A DNA stretch of 64,000 bases from Minisyncoccia bacterium (GCA_050015515.1 JBEKBG010000001.1:6028-70027), one strand, 5' to 3'. Positions 47,366 to 50,084 are shown, counted from the first letter of the stretch. The notes: generated from the letters alone by a model not told the origin. Program-made: numbers and translations.

Positions 47366-49075
47366 ATGGCGGTCCGTGAAGGGGTATCATCATATCAAAT
47401 GCTTGACGCACCTCAAAACGAGCTCAAGGAGAAGTTGGTGAAGCTGCGCCGCGATGGGGAGGAGCGGGCCGCGCAACGGCTTGCGGGGAATCTTGGGCTC
47501 TCGTATGTGGACCTTGGGAAGGTTCCCGTGTCGCTTGACGCGGTAAAAATTATTTCCGAAACCGAAGCGAAAGATGCGAAGGTTGCGGCGATTGAAGTGA
47601 AGTCTGAGAAGGTGGCGCTCGCGGCGATCAACCCCGAATTGCCCGCGACGAAAAAAATCGTGGAGGAGCTGGCGGCAAAAAAATATGAAGTGAAGGTCGT
47701 CGTCGTTTCGCCGTCCAGCATGGATGCGGCGTGGAAATTTTATCAATTTGTGAAGCCGGAGGCGGAAACGATCACGGGAAAAGTGGAGATCGCGCCGGAT
47801 CGCCTTGCGGCGTTGAAAGCAAAGTTGATCACCATTAATGCCGTACGCGCGGAGATCGCGGCGCAGCCGCTTGCGAATGTGTCGCCGGTGGCGCTCATTG
47901 AAATAATTTTGGCGGGCGCGATGGGATTGCGCGCGTCGGACATCCATACCGAAGCGGGCGAGAAAAAAGCGAAGATCCGCTTCCGCATAGACGGGCTGCT
48001 CCACGACATCTTCGATGAGATCCCGCTCGCGACGTACCATTCGTTCGTGTCGCGCATCAAGTTGCTTTCCGAGATGAAGCTGAATGTGCGCGATGCGGCG
48101 CAGGACGGACGGTTCACGATCGGCCTCGGCGGCAAGGACATCGAGATGCGCGTGTCGGTGATCCCGGCGGAGTTCGGCGAGACGATTGTGATGAGAATTT
48201 TGGATCCGTCGGCGACGATGGTTGGTCTGCCGGATTTGGGATTGCGCCCCGACAATCTGGAGGTGGTAAAGAAAAAAATCGCCCAGCCGAATGGCCTGAT
48301 CTTGAACACCGGACCGACCGGTTCCGGAAAGACGACGACACTGTACGCGTTCCTGCGCACTATGAACGATCCGACAATGAAGATCATCACACTTGAGGAT
48401 CCGATCGAATATCGCATCGAGGGAATCGAACAGACGCAGGTGGACAACGAGGCGGGATATACTTTTGGAAACGGCCTGCGCGCGATCGTGCGTCAGGACC
48501 CGGACGTGATCCTGGTCGGCGAGGTGCGTGATCTTGAGACGGCGGACATCGCGTTGGAGGCGGCGTTGACGGGGCACTTGGTATTGTCTACTTTGCACAC
48601 CAACGACGCCGTTGGCGCGGTGCCGCGCTTGATCAATCTCGGCGTCAAAGCGGTGAGCATCGGGCCGGCGCTTTCTCTCGTGATCGCCCAGCGCCTCGTG
48701 CGCGTGCTGTGCAAGGATTGCAAGAAGCCAATTGACACCGACGCGGCGGTTGCGGAGAAGATCAAAAAATTCCTCGATGCGTTGCCGGCCAAGGTGGATA
48801 GATCCCTCTACGTTAATTACAAAATGTACGCGCCGGTGGGATGCGAAAAATGCAATGGTATCGGATACAAAGGTCGCGTGGGAGTGTTTGAATTTTTAGA
48901 AGGCGGTTCGGACTTGGAAAAGACTATTTTGCACGAGGCATCGGAGGTCGCTCTGCGCGAGGTCGCCGCGCGGCAGGAGATGGTGACGATGCAGCAGGAC
49001 GGGATATTGAAAGTGCTAGAGGGGAAGACGACGTTCGAGGAGGTGGGAAGCGCAACAGGGGAGATCGCGTGGTGA
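47366..49075 (+). CDS. GspE/PilB family type II secretion / type IV pilus assembly ATPase
   Basis: N-terminal GSPII_E_N-like domain, Walker A LNTGPTGSGKTTT, C-terminal tetracysteine. Ends with TGA. Confidence 0.88.
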   Translation: MAVREGVSSYQMLDAPQNELKEKLVKLRRDGEERAAQRLAGNLGLSYVDLGKVPVSLDAVKIISETEAKDAKVAAIEVKSEKVALAAINPELPATKKIVEELAAKKYEVKVVVVSPSSMDAAWKFYQFVKPEAETITGKVEIAPDRLAALKAKLITINAVRAEIAAQPLANVSPVALIEIILAGAMGLRASDIHTEAGEKKAKIRFRIDGLLHDIFDEIPLATYHSFVSRIKLLSEMKLNVRDAAQDGRFTIGLGGKDIEMRVSVIPAEFGETIVMRILDPSATMVGLPDLGLRPDNLEVVKKKIAQPNGLILNTGPTGSGKTTTLYAFLRTMNDPTMKIITLEDPIEYRIEGIEQTQVDNEAGYTFGNGLRAIVRQDPDVILVGEVRDLETADIALEAALTGHLVLSTLHTNDAVGAVPRLINLGVKAVSIGPALSLVIAQRLVRVLCKDCKKPIDTDAAVAEKIKKFLDALPAKVDRSLYVNYKMYAPVGCEKCNGIGYKGRVGVFEFLEGGSDLEKTILHEASEVALREVAARQEMVTMQQDGILKVLEGKTTFEEVGSATGEIAW

Positions 49076-49193
49076 GAGATATGCACTTTGTTATTTGGGG
49101 TACGCGTTCCGGCCTTCTGGCCGGCCGCTCCATCTCGGCGGCCTTCGCCGCCTCCGATAGCCCCCAAATAACAAAGTGCATATCTCTCACCAC
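49069..49193. repeat. unique 32-bp perfect inverted repeat enclosing two GC hairpins with CTTC/TTCT loops
   Basis: 49069-49100 is the reverse complement of 49162-49193. Left arm contains the gspE-like stop codon. Confidence 0.65.
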
Positions 49194-49204
49194 GCAACCA
49201 CCTT

Positions 49205-49918
49205 ATGAGCTATAAAGACCAACGCACACTAAGTATGATTATTAATGTTTTGCGTTCGCACCTCATTAAGCAGGGATTTTTCGAGCACCATCTCTATTCG
49301 ACCCTCAATTATAAAATTGAAAACACCGACACTTTCAAGGTTGGAAAGGGGTTATATCTTCGCTATAATCCTGAACCTGACATTTGGCAGGTTGGGGAGC
49401 AATATGACAAATTTTTTTGGGTGGGAAGCATGTTTAGAAACGAAAAAAAAGTATCAACCCTCCATCGCTACGAATTCACAGTTCTTGATGTTTATTTGAA
49501 ACGCGGCAATATGAAAATGGTGGTCGAGGAATTTCTTGAGCTACTCGGTGTTTTGGAAAAATCACTCCACGTAGAACCACTTTCAAAACTTCCAGTAAAA
49601 TACGTTTCGTATAGCGAATTGAGAAAAGGGAAAATGGAGGGAAGCTTTTGGATGGTATTGACCGGTTATCCCATAAAAGAATCTTTTTATGATACGGAAG
49701 GGGCTAATAAGCACGCCAGTAATAAATTTGAAATCTTTTACGTGCGTAAAGGGAGGCCACTCGAGATCGCTGCGTGTGGAGAATTAGGAGAGAACCTTAA
49801 CCCCATCAACTATATAAAGGTCGCAAAAAAATTTTTAAATAAAAAAGTGGCCGATAAGAAATTTATCGGATTCGGATTTGGGCTTGAGCGAATCGCTCAC
49901 ATATACGGCCTTCTATAG
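49205..49918 (+). CDS. truncated class II aaRS catalytic-core paralog, EpmA/PoxA (GenX)-like
   Basis: Motif 2 FRNE (SMFRNEKKVSTLHRYEFTVLDVY), motif 3 GFGFGLERIAHIY, FEIFY...GRPLE. Only 237 aa. Markedly AT-richer than neighbours. Confidence 0.55.
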   Translation: MSYKDQRTLSMIINVLRSHLIKQGFFEHHLYSTLNYKIENTDTFKVGKGLYLRYNPEPDIWQVGEQYDKFFWVGSMFRNEKKVSTLHRYEFTVLDVYLKRGNMKMVVEEFLELLGVLEKSLHVEPLSKLPVKYVSYSELRKGKMEGSFWMVLTGYPIKESFYDTEGANKHASNKFEIFYVRKGRPLEIAACGELGENLNPINYIKVAKKFLNKKVADKKFIGFGFGLERIAHIYGLL

Positions 49919-49932
49919 TTCTTTACAATGGG

Positions 49933-50084
49933 TGCCGATGAAGAATATGTTTTAAAAGAGGATTTCGGAGGCGATGCCGGCTTGGTCGTTCATTCTTATG
50001 AACGCGGCATCGCCGAGAATCAGCGGTCGTCGGCCGCTGGAGCCGGCGAACCGCGTCTCTTTTAAAACATATTCTTCATCGGCA
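49933..50084. repeat. unique 28-bp perfect inverted repeat enclosing nested palindromes
   Basis: 49933-49960 is the reverse complement of 50057-50084. Inner GGCGATGCC...GGCATCGCC and CGTTCAT..ATGAACG hairpins. Confidence 0.6.

What the first reader, a model, noticed from the sequence alone, without database searches (positions are those of the whole stretch)
49069..50084. Low-GC cassette with a truncated EpmA/PoxA-like class II aaRS paralog bracketed by two different long hairpin elements
Gene 49205-49918 encodes 237 aa containing class II aaRS motif 2 (FRNE...) and motif 3 (GFGFGLERIAHIY) plus an FEIFY..G acceptor-like segment. It is closest in pattern to EF-P lysyl-transferase EpmA/GenX, but ~90 aa shorter and with no anticodon-binding domain. 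It is visibly AT-richer than its neighbours. It sits between a 32-bp perfect inverted repeat (49069-49193) whose left arm contains the gspE-like stop, and a 28-bp perfect inverted repeat with nested palindromes (49933-50084). The two hairpin elements are unrelated in sequence, so this is not a simple IS. The layout resembles a hairpin-delimited gene cassette. No efp gene is visible in the window.
Basis: partly seen in the sequence, partly recalled or inferred. Interest (0 to 1): 0.6.

Follow-up and report, generated by a model that had tools for sequence, protein, structure and literature searches.

The report
Mobile mini-synthetase gene between terminator-like hairpins
A small, AT-rich, horizontally acquired gene for a stripped-down relative of lysyl-tRNA synthetase has landed between two genes of a Patescibacteria (Paceibacteria) chromosome. 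The two long hairpins around it are copies of a widespread, undescribed structured element that sits at the 3' ends of genes in this group, not the ends of a mobile cassette.

Summary
In detail: the ORF, the class II motifs, the low GC (0.394 against 0.525, z = -3.1) and both perfect inverted repeats are real.

- **Not truncated.** The protein belongs to a rare family of conserved length (235-270 aa; 39 clusters among 1.84 billion). It is nearest to LysRS/EpmA but far below every model cut-off, and its side-chain pocket differs.
- **No EF-P link.** Neighbours differ in every genome, and some members are in DPANN archaea.
- **A real insertion.** In three relatives (87-94% PilB identity) pilB is followed by the conserved block and ruvB with no such gene. 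The variable segment is 49076-50085.
- **Horizontally mobile.** The family is AT-richer than its host locus in 13 of 13 loci.
- **The hairpins are related to each other.** Both carry a conserved three-way-junction cap on a hypervariable long stem. This element has over 118 metagenome hits, strong covariation and no Rfam match. It sits at the 3' ends of protein, tRNA and tmRNA genes, often overlapping the stop codon.
- **Layout.** One hairpin is the 3' module of pilB. The other is placed as the 3' module of a conserved non-coding block that is probably read on the minus strand.
- **Not part of the gene's mobile unit.** Homologues elsewhere have no such hairpins.

The enzyme's substrate and acceptor remain unknown.

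The parts
47366..49075 (+). pilB/gspE-type type IV pilus assembly ATPase (backbone gene). The true start is probably 47399, which would give 558 aa as in relatives.
   Evidence: Pfam T2SSE E = 3e-117 plus MshEN. Homologues at 94-71% identity are named PilB or GspE in Candidatus Paceibacterota.
49060..49202 (-). Hairpin I1: a type-B 3'-end element. The long stem is 32 bp perfect (41 bp at 93%). The conserved three-way-junction cap is at 49094-49169, with the core motif CGGAG-GCGGC-GAAG-GCCGC-CGAGA on the minus strand. The left arm overlaps the last codons and the stop of pilB.
   Evidence: MFE -95 kcal/mol, z = -12.6. Covariance model R1: 68 bits, E = 1e-17. Its placement over the stop codon is typical of the family.
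49076..50085 (.). Lineage-specific variable segment, absent from relatives. It contains I1 (apart from the outer part of its left arm, which is pilB coding sequence), the aaRS-like gene and I10.
   Evidence: L025, L027 and L028 (94, 91 and 87% PilB identity) go from the pilB stop through 140-260 nt of unrelated filler into the conserved block that starts AAAGTAGTAAACTCAGACC.
49205..49918 (+). Gene for a 237-aa stand-alone class IIb aaRS-like catalytic core, of a rare LysRS/EpmA-related family.
   Evidence: The identical protein occurs with the same flanks in four public assemblies from different samples.
49933..50084 (+). Hairpin I10: a divergent type-B element. The stem is 28 bp perfect. The cap has an enlarged P2 (a 9-bp helix with a nested hairpin) and a P3 helix, with the core motif on the plus strand.
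   Evidence: Model R1 scores it 26.4 bits, E = 2.6e-5 on the identical copy in L021, but only E = 0.5 in the full-window scan.
50086..50260 (-). Conserved non-coding block, a candidate structured RNA gene. It begins within 2 nt of I10. The strand is inferred, not shown.
   Evidence: About 97% identical in four genomes while the flanks vary. The minus strand folds better (-73.1 kcal/mol, z = -6.5, against -59.9 and z = -5.0). A minus-strand promoter-like site TTGACA-17-TAACAT lies at 50306-50278. There is no Rfam match.
50342..51373 (+). ruvB (backbone gene).
   Evidence: Pfam RuvB_N, AAA_lid_4 and RuvB_C. The 343-aa gene call in L021 maps to 50342.
41877..42006 (-). Another type-B element (I5). 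It is the 3' module of dnaN and overlaps its stop codon. Next to it lies a low-GC HAD-like gene (42096-42839, minus strand).
   Evidence: R1: 87.6 bits, E = 2e-23. Its orthologue in L027 has a nearly identical cap and a diverged stem. The HAD ORF has GC 0.401.
9474..9549 (+). Another type-B element, the 3' module of the gene at 9564-10157 (minus strand).
   Evidence: R1: 77.1 bits, E = 2e-20.
56198..56271 (+). Another type-B element, directly after a low-GC glyoxalase-family gene (55749-56108).
   Evidence: R1: 62.4 bits, E = 4e-16. Gene and element are both absent from L028, where the histidine kinase gene is followed by pyrG.

Best explanation
**Shown**
- The window comes from a Paceibacteria (Patescibacteria/CPR) chromosome.
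- The segment 49076-50085 is a lineage-specific insertion at a hypervariable junction. The junction lies between pilB and a conserved non-coding block upstream of ruvB.
- The insertion carries one AT-rich gene for a 237-aa stand-alone class IIb aaRS catalytic core.
- This protein family is rare and of conserved length. It is nearest to LysRS/EpmA but distinct from both. It is horizontally mobile among CPR bacteria and DPANN archaea, with one hit in a planctomycete MAG. It is AT-richer than every host locus examined and has different neighbours everywhere.
- The two flanking hairpins are two copies, in opposite orientation, of a widespread Patescibacterial element. The element has a long, hypervariable, near-perfect stem capped by a conserved three-way junction. 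It sits immediately 3' of protein, tRNA and tmRNA genes with a fixed polarity.

**Inferred**
- I1 is the 3'-end (terminator or processing) module of pilB. I10 is the 3'-end module of a minus-strand RNA gene formed by the conserved block. The foreign gene therefore sits in the gap between two convergent 3'-end modules, a spot that tolerates insertions.
- The enzyme binds ATP and an alpha-amino acid and makes an aminoacyl-adenylate. The residues that bind ATP, Mg2+ and the alpha-amino group are retained, as are those that contact the acceptor end.
- The amino acid is probably not lysine, because the side-chain pocket is remodelled.
- With no anticodon-binding domain, it passes the aminoacyl group to an acceptor recognised only at the active site. 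That could be a tRNA 3' end, a protein or a small molecule. Alternatively it releases or uses the adenylate, for example to make Ap4A-type nucleotides.
For: **Insertion and synteny**
- dnaN-PBP-ruvC-yebC-X-pilB-ruvB-LTD-tsaE-exonuclease-HK is conserved in L025, L027 and L028, without the gene.
- The same insertion appears in four independent assemblies.

**Composition**
- GC z = -3.1 in the window.
- The gene is AT-richer than its locus in 13 of 13 loci, for example 0.344 against 0.537 and 0.394 against 0.557.

**Protein family**
- 37 homologues at 45-99% identity, full-length members 233-270 aa, with 41 invariant columns.
- Only 39 clusters reach E < 1e-10 out of 1.84e9, followed by a sharp drop to LysRS/EpmA-like proteins.
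- The AlphaFold2 model has pLDDT 88. Foldseek matches AspRS, LysRS, AsnRS and EpmA cores with probability 1.0 and TM about 0.7.
- R78, E80, E176, E187, E228 and R229 are kept. E57 aligns with the alpha-amino-binding Glu of LysRS. The pocket changes are LysRS E428 to L194, F/Y426 to G192, and N424 to A190.
- Of the residues essential for acceptor contact in PoxA (E103, H108, R235; PMC3950694), the family has E80, H87 and K174.

**Contexts**
- All 13 are different.

**Hairpin element**
- The loops share one scaffold.
- The 21-mer core has more than 118 metagenome hits. 64 are non-redundant copies with perfect stems of 14-41 bp.
- Covariation: 93% of cells paired against 72% when shuffled, 12 of 20 pairs changed on both sides, 0 of 500 shuffles as good, and 32-47% paired when the partners are slid.
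- The model finds I1 at E = 1e-17 and I10 at 2.6e-5.
- Polarity: 53 of 71 neighbours fit. The stop codon lies -14 to +13 nt from the stem end in 38 of 43 cases. Adjacent tRNA and tmRNA genes fit in 4 of 4 cases.
- No hairpins flank homologues of the gene elsewhere.
Against: - No biochemical or expression data exist. The substrate, the acceptor and even catalytic activity are inferred from conserved residues alone.
- The motif 1 proline is lost.
- The start codon lies 2 nt after the I1 stem, and no convincing promoter or ribosome-binding site was found. How the gene is expressed behind a presumed terminator is unexplained.
- I1 and I10 have no U-tract, so 'terminator' rests on position only.
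- Relatives have no type-B element at the end of the conserved block, so I10 is not an ancestral terminator of it. The strand of that block is inferred.
- Tandem G.A pairs, and G:T outnumbering A:C 13 to 3, favour the strand opposite to the one implied by gene polarity.
- The element at 56198 breaks the polarity rule.
- Type-B elements are enriched next to low-GC inserted genes: 4 of 6 against 1 of 53 junctions in the window, p = 1.6e-4, and 21% against 10% in metagenome contigs, p = 0.017. This leaves room for a mechanistic link between element and insertion.
Confidence: 0.6

Rival explanations
1. EpmA/PoxA-type enzyme: it (beta-)lysylates EF-P (or a paralogue) at the tip of its acceptor-mimic loop.
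For: - EpmA models are the top NCBIfam hits for the window protein, and the genX model is hit by all 33 members.
- Like EpmA, it lacks an anticodon-binding domain.
- Two of the three PoxA residues essential for EF-P aminoacylation are kept, and the third is a conservative change: E80, H87 and K174 for R235.
- efp lies 2.4 kb away in one genome, L008.
Against: - Scores are 27-30 bits against cut-offs of 264-287, and LysRS models score about the same.
- The lysine side-chain pocket is not conserved: L194, G192 and A190.
- The protein is about 90 aa shorter, with three deletions.
- No efp or lysine aminomutase was called next to it in any of 13 contexts.
- Members occur in Pacearchaeota and Nanoarchaeota. 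By established knowledge these have aIF5A, not EF-P.
- The family is extremely patchy, whereas EF-P is universal in bacteria.
- By a manual alignment from memory (unverified), the one nearby EF-P seems to have Gln, not Lys, at the position of Lys34.
Confidence: 0.06
2. Hairpin-mediated gene capture. Type-B hairpins act as recombination or integration sites, in the manner of attC, so that hairpin-gene-hairpin is a cassette inserted by a site-specific or template-switch mechanism.
For: - Three lineage-specific low-GC genes in the window (aaRS-like, HAD, glyoxalase) each adjoin a type-B element: 4 of 6 junctions against 1 of 53, p = 1.6e-4.
- In metagenome contigs, low-GC genes are 2.5 times enriched next to the element, p = 0.017.
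- I1 and I10 are in inverted orientation around the gene.
- I10 and the 56198 element lie directly 3' of their low-GC genes in the minority orientation.
Against: - Most copies flank ordinary housekeeping genes, tRNAs and tmRNA. The median GC of neighbouring genes is not shifted.
- The dnaN element has an orthologue in L027 with no cargo gene.
- Homologues of the aaRS-like gene elsewhere have no such hairpins.
- By eye, the stem ends carry no shared GTTRRRY-type attC core site; no cassette array is present. Integrase genes were not searched for in the window.
- A shared preference of insertions and hairpins for permissive junctions between convergent or tandem genes explains the enrichment equally well.
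Confidence: 0.12
3. A minimal true tRNA synthetase. It charges a tRNA by recognising only the acceptor end, either backing up a missing aaRS or feeding a tRNA-dependent pathway such as a cyclodipeptide synthase or cell-wall aminoacyl transfer.
For: - The motif 2 loop and the residues that contact the discriminator base and CCA end in LysRS and AspRS are kept.
- A cyclodipeptide synthase gene is the divergent neighbour in L005.
- The dcw/mur cluster lies downstream in L001.
- By established knowledge, PylRS catalytic domains of similar size charge tRNA.
Against: - No tRNA gene and no conserved partner lies next to it in 13 contexts.
- A rare, patchy, AT-rich accessory gene is not what an essential translation factor looks like.
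- The motif 1 proline at the dimer interface is lost.
Confidence: 0.15
4. A decaying remnant of a LysRS or EpmA gene, with no function.
For: It is short, gives weak model hits that cover only the N-terminal half, and has lost the motif 1 proline.
Against: - The ORF is intact at the same length in 30 or more divergent genomes down to 45% identity. There are 41 invariant and 35 nearly invariant columns, concentrated in the catalytic motifs.
- The structure prediction is confident and compact (pLDDT 88).
- Only one member (L015) looks frameshifted.
Confidence: 0.04

Closest known systems
EpmA (PoxA/GenX/YjeA), the EF-P-(R)-beta-lysine ligase
   Same: A stand-alone class IIb catalytic core without an anticodon-binding domain. 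It is the nearest named profile. Motifs 2 and 3 are shared, and so are two of the three residues PoxA needs to aminoacylate its acceptor.
   Different: - About 90 aa shorter, with three deletions.
- Lysine side-chain pocket replaced.
- 27-30 bits against cut-offs of 264-287.
- No efp or epmB association.
- Present in archaea.
- Rare and horizontally mobile.
Class II lysyl-tRNA synthetase (LysS/LysU), including LysU's Ap4A synthesis
   Same: Best sequence matches in the PDB (E about 6e-6) and fold matches (TM about 0.7). The RxxPE alpha-amino motif, the FRNE motif 2 and the GxGxGxxR motif 3 are shared. In single genomes HIT, CYTH, HD_4 and Fic genes lie next to homologues. That would fit adenylate or polyphosphate chemistry, but it is only a lead.
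   Different: - No OB-fold anticodon-binding domain.
- No helical insertion between motifs 2 and 3.
- E428, F426 and N424 equivalents are lost.
- The motif 1 proline is lost.
AsnA and archaeal AsnRS-like asparagine synthetases, HisZ, PylS C-terminal domain (other truncated class II paralogues)
   Same: The same idea: a class II core on its own that uses aminoacyl-adenylate chemistry or has a regulatory role.
   Different: Profile hits are negligible: AsnA for 1 of 33 members, HisZ for none, and PylS_Cterm weakly for 20 of 33. No conserved partner genes.
Intrinsic (Rho-independent) terminators, including bidirectional ones
   Same: Hairpins placed at or over the stop codon of protein and RNA genes. 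Some hairpins in the window (for example 45090-45167) have A-tract, stem and U-tract symmetry.
   Different: - Stems of 20-41 bp instead of 5-14 bp.
- A conserved 60-nt three-way-junction cap, or an 18-nt loop in type A.
- No U-tract at I1 or I10.
- Fixed polarity of the cap.
REP/BIME and other bacterial palindromic repeats or MITEs; integron attC sites
   Same: Many intergenic palindromic copies per genome. Found at gene 3' ends. Occasional inverted pairs. attC sites also follow cassette ORFs and keep their structure more than their sequence.
   Different: Here the cap is conserved and the stem differs in every copy, which is the reverse of REP elements, MITEs and attC. No conserved terminal core sites and no cassette array. 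No associated transposase or integrase was identified, though window genes were not screened for one.

Membership tests
Class II aaRS catalytic-core superfamily (subclass IIb-like) | Motif 2 (fRxE arginine) and motif 3 (GxGxGxxR arginine), with acidic Mg2+ ligands | tested here: met
   R78/E80, G222-F-G-F-G-L-E-R229, E176 and E187 are invariant or nearly so in 33 sequences.
Class II aaRS catalytic-core superfamily (subclass IIb-like) | Class II antiparallel-sheet fold | tested here: met
   The AlphaFold2 model has pLDDT 88.2. Foldseek matches AspRS, LysRS, AsnRS and EpmA with probability 1.00, E down to 6e-12 and TM 0.62-0.72.
Class II aaRS catalytic-core superfamily (subclass IIb-like) | Motif 1 with its invariant proline at the dimer interface | tested here: not met
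   GFFEHHLYST aligns with GFMEVETPTL of LysRS. The proline position holds Y31 or S32 in the family.
EpmA (EF-P-beta-lysine ligase) | Scores above the curated equivalog cut-offs (TIGR00462, NF006828) | tested here: not met
   26.9 bits against 286.9 and 30.3 against 264, matching residues 21-137 only. The best E-value among all 33 members is 2e-8.
EpmA (EF-P-beta-lysine ligase) | Lysine side-chain pocket shared with LysRS (E278, Y280, N424, F426, E428 in E. coli LysU numbering, recalled from the literature) | tested here: not met
   Alignment A5 gives D95, Y97, A190, G192 and L194. The Glu that binds the epsilon-amino group is lost. The residue numbering is from memory; the alignment itself was computed.
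EpmA (EF-P-beta-lysine ligase) | Residues essential for EF-P aminoacylation (PoxA E103, H108, R235; PMC3950694) | tested here: inconclusive
   The equivalents are E80, H87 (mostly conserved) and K174 instead of Arg. The same residues contact the tRNA 3' end in LysRS and AspRS, so they do not discriminate.
EpmA (EF-P-beta-lysine ligase) | Occurs with efp (Lys34 type) and usually epmB | tested here: not met
   No efp in the window. In 13 contexts efp is nearby only once, 2.4 kb away on the opposite strand, and no aminomutase was called next to the gene. Members occur in archaeal MAGs. The whole genome could not be checked.
Canonical class II LysRS | N-terminal OB-fold anticodon-binding domain and a full-length catalytic domain; scores above the model cut-off | tested here: not met
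   237 aa with the catalytic core only. lysS_bact scores 21.5 bits against 427.6. The deletions are mapped.
AsnA / HisZ | Significant match to the family profile | tested here: not met
   AsnA matches 1 of 33 members at E = 0.002. There is no HisZ match.
Integron gene cassette (ORF plus attC) | attC with conserved outer core sites (RYYYAAC ... GTTRRRY), a variable centre, extrahelical bases, and cassette arrays next to intI | tested here: not met
   The stems are perfect and differ between copies, their outer ends carry no shared core site, and it is the centre that is conserved. The same element follows dnaN, tRNA and tmRNA genes. The presence of an integrase elsewhere in the genome was not tested.
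IS / MITE / REP-type repeat | Terminal or stem sequences conserved among copies; associated transposase | tested here: not met
   Neither arm sequence recurs in the window. 64 non-redundant copies have unrelated stems. No transposase was identified in the annotated flanks of the aaRS-like gene; the other window genes were not screened.
Canonical intrinsic terminator | Short GC-rich stem followed by a U-tract | tested here: not met
   The scan finds no terminator-like site at I1 or I10, and the sequence after each stem has no T-run. The position right after stop codons does fit.
Any Rfam 15 family (for the hairpins and the conserved block) | Covariance-model match | tested here: not met
   The only hits are sub-threshold plant miRNA-precursor models, caused by the long stems.

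The most novel reading that the evidence does not exclude
The capped hairpins are more than terminators. They would mark, or create, integration hot spots through which Patescibacteria take up single AT-rich accessory genes. The mini-synthetase would be one such cargo, with a new tRNA-independent aminoacyl-adenylate chemistry such as protein or small-molecule aminoacylation, or alarmone synthesis. Independently of that, the capped hairpin itself would be a new class of structured 3'-end RNA (or DNA) element that is abundant in a major bacterial radiation.
Probability: 0.12. Interest if true: 0.8.

Novelty: new variant of a known kind. Interest (0 to 1): 0.5.

Why it matters
**The protein.** It adds a compact, mobile member to the short list of class II synthetase cores that work without an anticodon-binding domain (EpmA, AsnA, HisZ, PylS C-terminal domain). 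At 237 aa it is among the smallest natural cores that keep all the catalytic residues. That makes it useful for questions about minimal aaRS function. Its spread between ultra-small bacteria and archaea suggests a selectable accessory activity.

**The hairpins.** They point to an undescribed structured element with strong covariation that is common at gene 3' ends in Patescibacteria. Transcription termination and RNA processing in this group are essentially unstudied. The long palindromes also break metagenome assemblies: several public contigs start inside I1.

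Tried and rejected
**Database searches that found nothing**
- Rfam at gathering and E-value thresholds, on the window, on the hairpins, on the conserved block and on ten metagenome copies. Only spurious miRNA-precursor hits appeared.
- PADLOC and PHROGs for the protein: no hits.
- tblastn against 50,697 phage records and a profile scan of IMG/VR: no relatives.

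**Libraries not available**

**Ideas tested and dropped**
- Integron attC, and IS or MITE ends: rejected because the stems are unique and the centre is conserved.
- 'Hairpins travel with the gene': rejected because homologues in about 15 other loci have no long inverted repeats and no type-B match flanking the gene. The one type-B match, in L003, lies about 2.5 kb away.

**Scans that were uninformative**
- A loose gapped pattern for the type-B core was too unspecific: 20 hits against 12 expected.
- The 18-nt type-A loop found only chance matches, without flanking repeats, in viral contigs. It is absent from all 146 loci held at that point.
- The type-B 21-mer is absent from viral contigs.

**Literature**
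- Full-text searches found no description of the protein family or of the hairpin motif.

**Weak leads left as leads**
- Gene neighbourhoods gave no conserved partner. HIT, CYTH, HD_4, Fic and CDPS each occur once.

Full report
**1. What was checked first.**
The ORF at 49205-49918 (+) is real and encodes 237 aa. It carries class II motif 2 (MFRNEKK) and motif 3 (GFGFGLERIAHIY). Pfam gives only a borderline tRNA-synt_2 hit (25.5 bits, cut-off 25, residues 10-118). The best NCBIfam hits are the two EpmA models, at 30.3 and 26.9 bits against cut-offs of 264 and 287. LysRS models follow at 21.5 bits.

Both inverted repeats are as described. The first is 32 nt perfect, extendable to 41 nt at 93%, and its left arm includes the stop codon of the upstream gene. 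The second is 28 nt perfect around a 96-nt structured loop.

The gene has GC 0.394 and GC3 0.429. The 57 other ORFs of the window average 0.525 and 0.615, giving z = -3.1 and -2.1. No efp is in the window.

**2. The protein is a family, not a truncation.**
A search of 5.8 billion proteins gave 37 relatives at 45-99% identity; the full-length ones are 233-270 aa (four shorter hits look like fragments). They come from Patescibacteria and from a Nanoarchaeota MAG. A genome scan added Saccharibacteria, Nomurabacteria, a Pacearchaeota genome and one Planctomycetaceae MAG.

The alignment has 41 invariant and 35 nearly invariant columns. An exhaustive profile search of 1.84 billion cluster representatives found only 39 clusters below E = 1e-10. 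After a sharp drop come LysRS and EpmA-like proteins. All 33 aligned members hit the genX model weakly and 30 hit lysS. Only one hits AsnA and none hits HisZ.

The AlphaFold2 model is confident (pLDDT 88). It superposes on AspRS, LysRS, AsnRS and EpmA catalytic domains with TM about 0.7, with no special closeness to EpmA (3g1z is rank 17).

An alignment with EpmA-like proteins and a LysRS shows what is kept:
- the motif 2 arginine
- the motif 3 arginine
- the two Mg2+-binding glutamates
- the RxxPE glutamate that binds the alpha-amino group in LysRS

It also shows what is lost:
- three segments are deleted, including the large insertion between motifs 2 and 3
- the motif 1 proline is gone
- the positions that hold the lysine side chain in LysRS are L194, G192 and A190

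Of the three PoxA residues that are indispensable for aminoacylating EF-P (E103, H108, R235; PMC3950694), the family has E80, H87 and K174. The same residues touch the tRNA 3' end in LysRS and AspRS, so this only says that an acceptor can probably be positioned.

I conclude that the protein is very likely an active amino-acid-adenylating enzyme. It belongs to a new, small LysRS/EpmA-related family and is probably not specific for lysine.

**3. No EF-P link.**
Thirteen genomic contexts were read, and no neighbour recurs. The neighbours are:
- mraZ and the dcw cluster
- a HIT gene with overlapping stop and start codons
- a CYTH gene
- a SpoT-type HD_4 gene
- a divergent cyclodipeptide synthase
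- RidA and NYN genes
- toxin-antitoxin pairs
- integrase and resolvase genes
- a Y1 transposase
- a Fic gene
- in archaea, ribosomal protein S19e and NadA

efp is within 2.4 kb only once, on the other strand. The presence of the family in DPANN archaea, which by established knowledge use aIF5A, argues against an EF-P-specific role. So does its extreme patchiness. The nucleotide-hydrolase neighbours (HIT, CYTH, HD_4) are a weak lead towards adenylate or Ap4A-type chemistry, nothing more.

**4. It is a real, recent insertion of a mobile gene.**
The upstream gene is a PilB-type ATPase and the downstream gene is ruvB. PilB homologues at 94, 91 and 87% identity come from Paceibacterota contigs. Those contigs keep the same gene order (dnaN, PBP, ruvC, yebC, X, pilB, ruvB, LTD, tsaE, exonuclease, histidine kinase) but have no gene between pilB and ruvB.

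Sequence comparison places the variable segment exactly between the pilB stop codon (49075) and a conserved block that starts at 50086. Each relative has a different short filler there. The identical protein with the same flanks occurs in four assemblies from different samples, so the insertion is not an assembly artefact.

The family is AT-richer than its host locus in 13 of 13 loci, by up to 19 points, and at third codon positions too. That is the signature of a gene that keeps moving between genomes. It has no relatives in phage records, IMG/VR, PHROGs or PADLOC.

**5. The hairpins.**
The window contains eleven long, nearly perfect inverted repeats with unique stems, all at gene ends. Their loops are not unique.

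*Type A.* Five hairpins share an 18-nt loop, ATCCCGAAGGGTGAGCCC, in either orientation.

*Type B.* The hairpins after dnaN, after pilB (I1) and after the aaRS-like gene (I10) share a larger scaffold. About 64 non-redundant copies have perfect stems of 14-41 bp that differ in every copy.

The cap is a three-way junction:
- P2 is an irregular helix with a tandem G.A motif and a GAAG loop.
- P3 is a helix of variable sequence with a CAGCAG-type loop and a bulged A.

On 22 sequences, 93% of cells pair, against 72% in shuffles and 32-47% when the partners are slid. Twelve of 20 pairs show changes on both sides.

A covariance model built from this alignment gave these matches in the window:

| Position | Score |
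|---|---|
| dnaN copy, 41905-41978 (-) | E = 2e-23 |
| New copy, 9474-9549 (+) | E = 2e-20 |
| I1, 49094-49169 (-) | E = 1e-17 |
| New copy, 56198-56271 (+) | E = 4e-16 |
| I10, 49953-50041 (+) | E = 0.5 |

I10 scores poorly in the window scan because its P2 carries an insertion. On the identical copy in L021, searched in a smaller set with default filters, it reaches E = 2.6e-5.

Neither Rfam 15 nor the searchable literature has this motif.

**6. What the element does, as far as position tells.**
Take the frame in which the core reads CGGAG...CGAG. The right-hand neighbour is on the minus strand in 53 of 71 cases. Its stop codon lies -14 to +13 nt from the end of the stem in 38 of 43 clean cases. 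Left-hand genes are 4-294 nt away and on either strand. Adjacent tmRNA and tRNA genes obey the same rule in 4 of 4 cases.

The element is therefore a 3'-end module of the gene whose transcript carries the reverse complement of that core. It is a terminator, processing or stabilising hairpin by position, though it has no U-tract.

In the window, I1 is the module of pilB, I5 that of dnaN, and the 9474 copy that of the gene at 9564-10157. I10 has the opposite orientation, so it is placed as the module of a minus-strand gene beginning at 50086. This is exactly where a roughly 175-nt non-coding block begins. The block has these properties:
- It is about 97% identical in four genomes, more conserved than the flanking sequence.
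- It folds better on the minus strand (z = -6.5).
- A minus-strand promoter-like site lies upstream of it.

The simplest picture is that the foreign gene sits in the gap between two convergent 3'-end modules.

Three things remain unexplained:
- Relatives lack a type-B element at that block.
- The start codon of the gene lies 2 nt after the I1 stem.
- G:T outnumbers A:C 13 to 3, and the tandem G.A motifs favour the other strand as the structured RNA.

**7. Is there still a cassette?**
Homologues of the gene in other genomes have no long inverted repeats or type-B matches flanking the gene. This includes the closest one with context, at 69% identity. One type-B match does occur about 2.5 kb from the homologue in L003. 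The dnaN hairpin has an orthologue with a nearly identical cap, a diverged stem and no cargo gene. This argues against a hairpin-bounded mobile unit.

The association is not nil, however. Three low-GC genes adjoin type-B elements in the window. The aaRS-like gene is absent from L025, L027 and L028. The HAD gene is absent from L025, L027 and L028; only L027 carries a type-B orthologue at that junction. The glyoxalase gene could be checked only in L028. That is 4 of 6 junctions against 1 of 53 (p = 1.6e-4). In 41 metagenome contigs, low-GC genes make up 21% of the element's neighbours against 10% of other genes (p = 0.017), although the median is unchanged.

Either permissive junctions collect both insertions and hairpins, or the hairpins help insertion. 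I give the second reading about 12%.

**8. Verdict.**

The protein is a new small family within a known kind. The hairpins are members of an undescribed, widespread structured 3'-end element.

My confidence is high (about 0.85) for the evolutionary and anatomical picture. It is moderate (about 0.6) for the 3'-end-module role of the hairpins. It is low (about 0.35) for any specific biochemical role of the enzyme beyond amino-acid activation.

Noticed in passing
window 10323-10408, 18371-18452, 19080-19151, 37172-37264, 37860-37956: A second hairpin family (type A). Five long perfect hairpins have different stems but share the same 18-nt loop, ATCCCGAAGGGTGAGCCC, in either orientation. Two pairs about 700 nt apart have roughly 70% similar stems, with the changes mirrored in both arms. 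The loop is absent from all 146 loci held when it was searched, including close relatives. This suggests a recent expansion in this lineage.
   Followed up: partly
window 50086-50260 (probably minus strand): A non-coding block about 97% identical in four genomes at 87-94% PilB identity. It forms a closed multi-branch fold (minus strand -73 kcal/mol, z = -6.5). A minus-strand promoter-like site TTGACA-17-TAACAT lies at 50306-50278. There is no Rfam match. It is a candidate new small RNA gene upstream of ruvB.
   Followed up: partly
window 42096-42839 (-): A low-GC (0.401) HAD/Cof-like hydrolase gene, identified by eye from the translation, lies between dnaN and the PBP gene. In relatives L025 and L028 those two genes abut or overlap. 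In L027 the junction holds two type-B hairpins and no gene. This is a second lineage-specific insertion at a hairpin-bearing junction.
   Followed up: partly
window 55749-56271: A low-GC (0.369) glyoxalase-family gene followed by a type-B element (56198-56271). Together they are inserted between the histidine kinase gene and pyrG, relative to L028. This copy breaks the polarity rule of the element.
   Followed up: partly
window 45090-45167; L025 2690-2757; L027 2719-2794; L028 3649-3716: An orthologous hairpin downstream of ruvC is present in all four genomes. Arms are 26-31 bp, perfect or nearly so. The 16-nt loop is conserved in three of the four. The stem sequences differ, with the changes mirrored in both arms, including length changes. 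It has A-tract, stem and U-tract symmetry like a bidirectional terminator.
   Followed up: partly
L022, L023, L024 (public contigs identical to window 49162 onwards): Three short-read assemblies of the same locus start 40-44 nt upstream of the gene, which is inside hairpin I1. These long palindromes appear to break metagenome assemblies.
   Followed up: no
window 18885-19260: Three different long hairpins (one weak, one type A, one with a 9-nt loop) are packed into the 440-nt space between two divergent genes. Next to them is the low-GC UPF0102/YraN gene (18479-18844).
   Followed up: no
L003 6723-7169; L007 6816-7364; L017 5909-6541; L165 1374-1796; L005 5257-5946: Homologues of the aaRS-like gene lie next to HIT (overlapping stop and start), CYTH, SpoT-type HD_4, Fic and cyclodipeptide-synthase genes, each in a single genome. 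All act on nucleotides, adenylates or aminoacyl-tRNA. This is a weak functional lead.
   Followed up: partly
window 52238-52313 (+): ARAGORN calls a 76-nt tRNA-Ser(CGA). Rfam's tRNA model did not report it at the gathering threshold, and 76 nt is short for a tRNA-Ser with a long variable arm.
   Followed up: no
metagenome type-B copies, e.g. L032, L041, L058, L135: Many copies have a second tandem G.A / A.G mismatch in the long stem next to the junction (UUUUGAGGG ... CCCGAAAA), besides the one in P2. These motifs sit on the strand opposite to the one implied by gene polarity.
   Followed up: no
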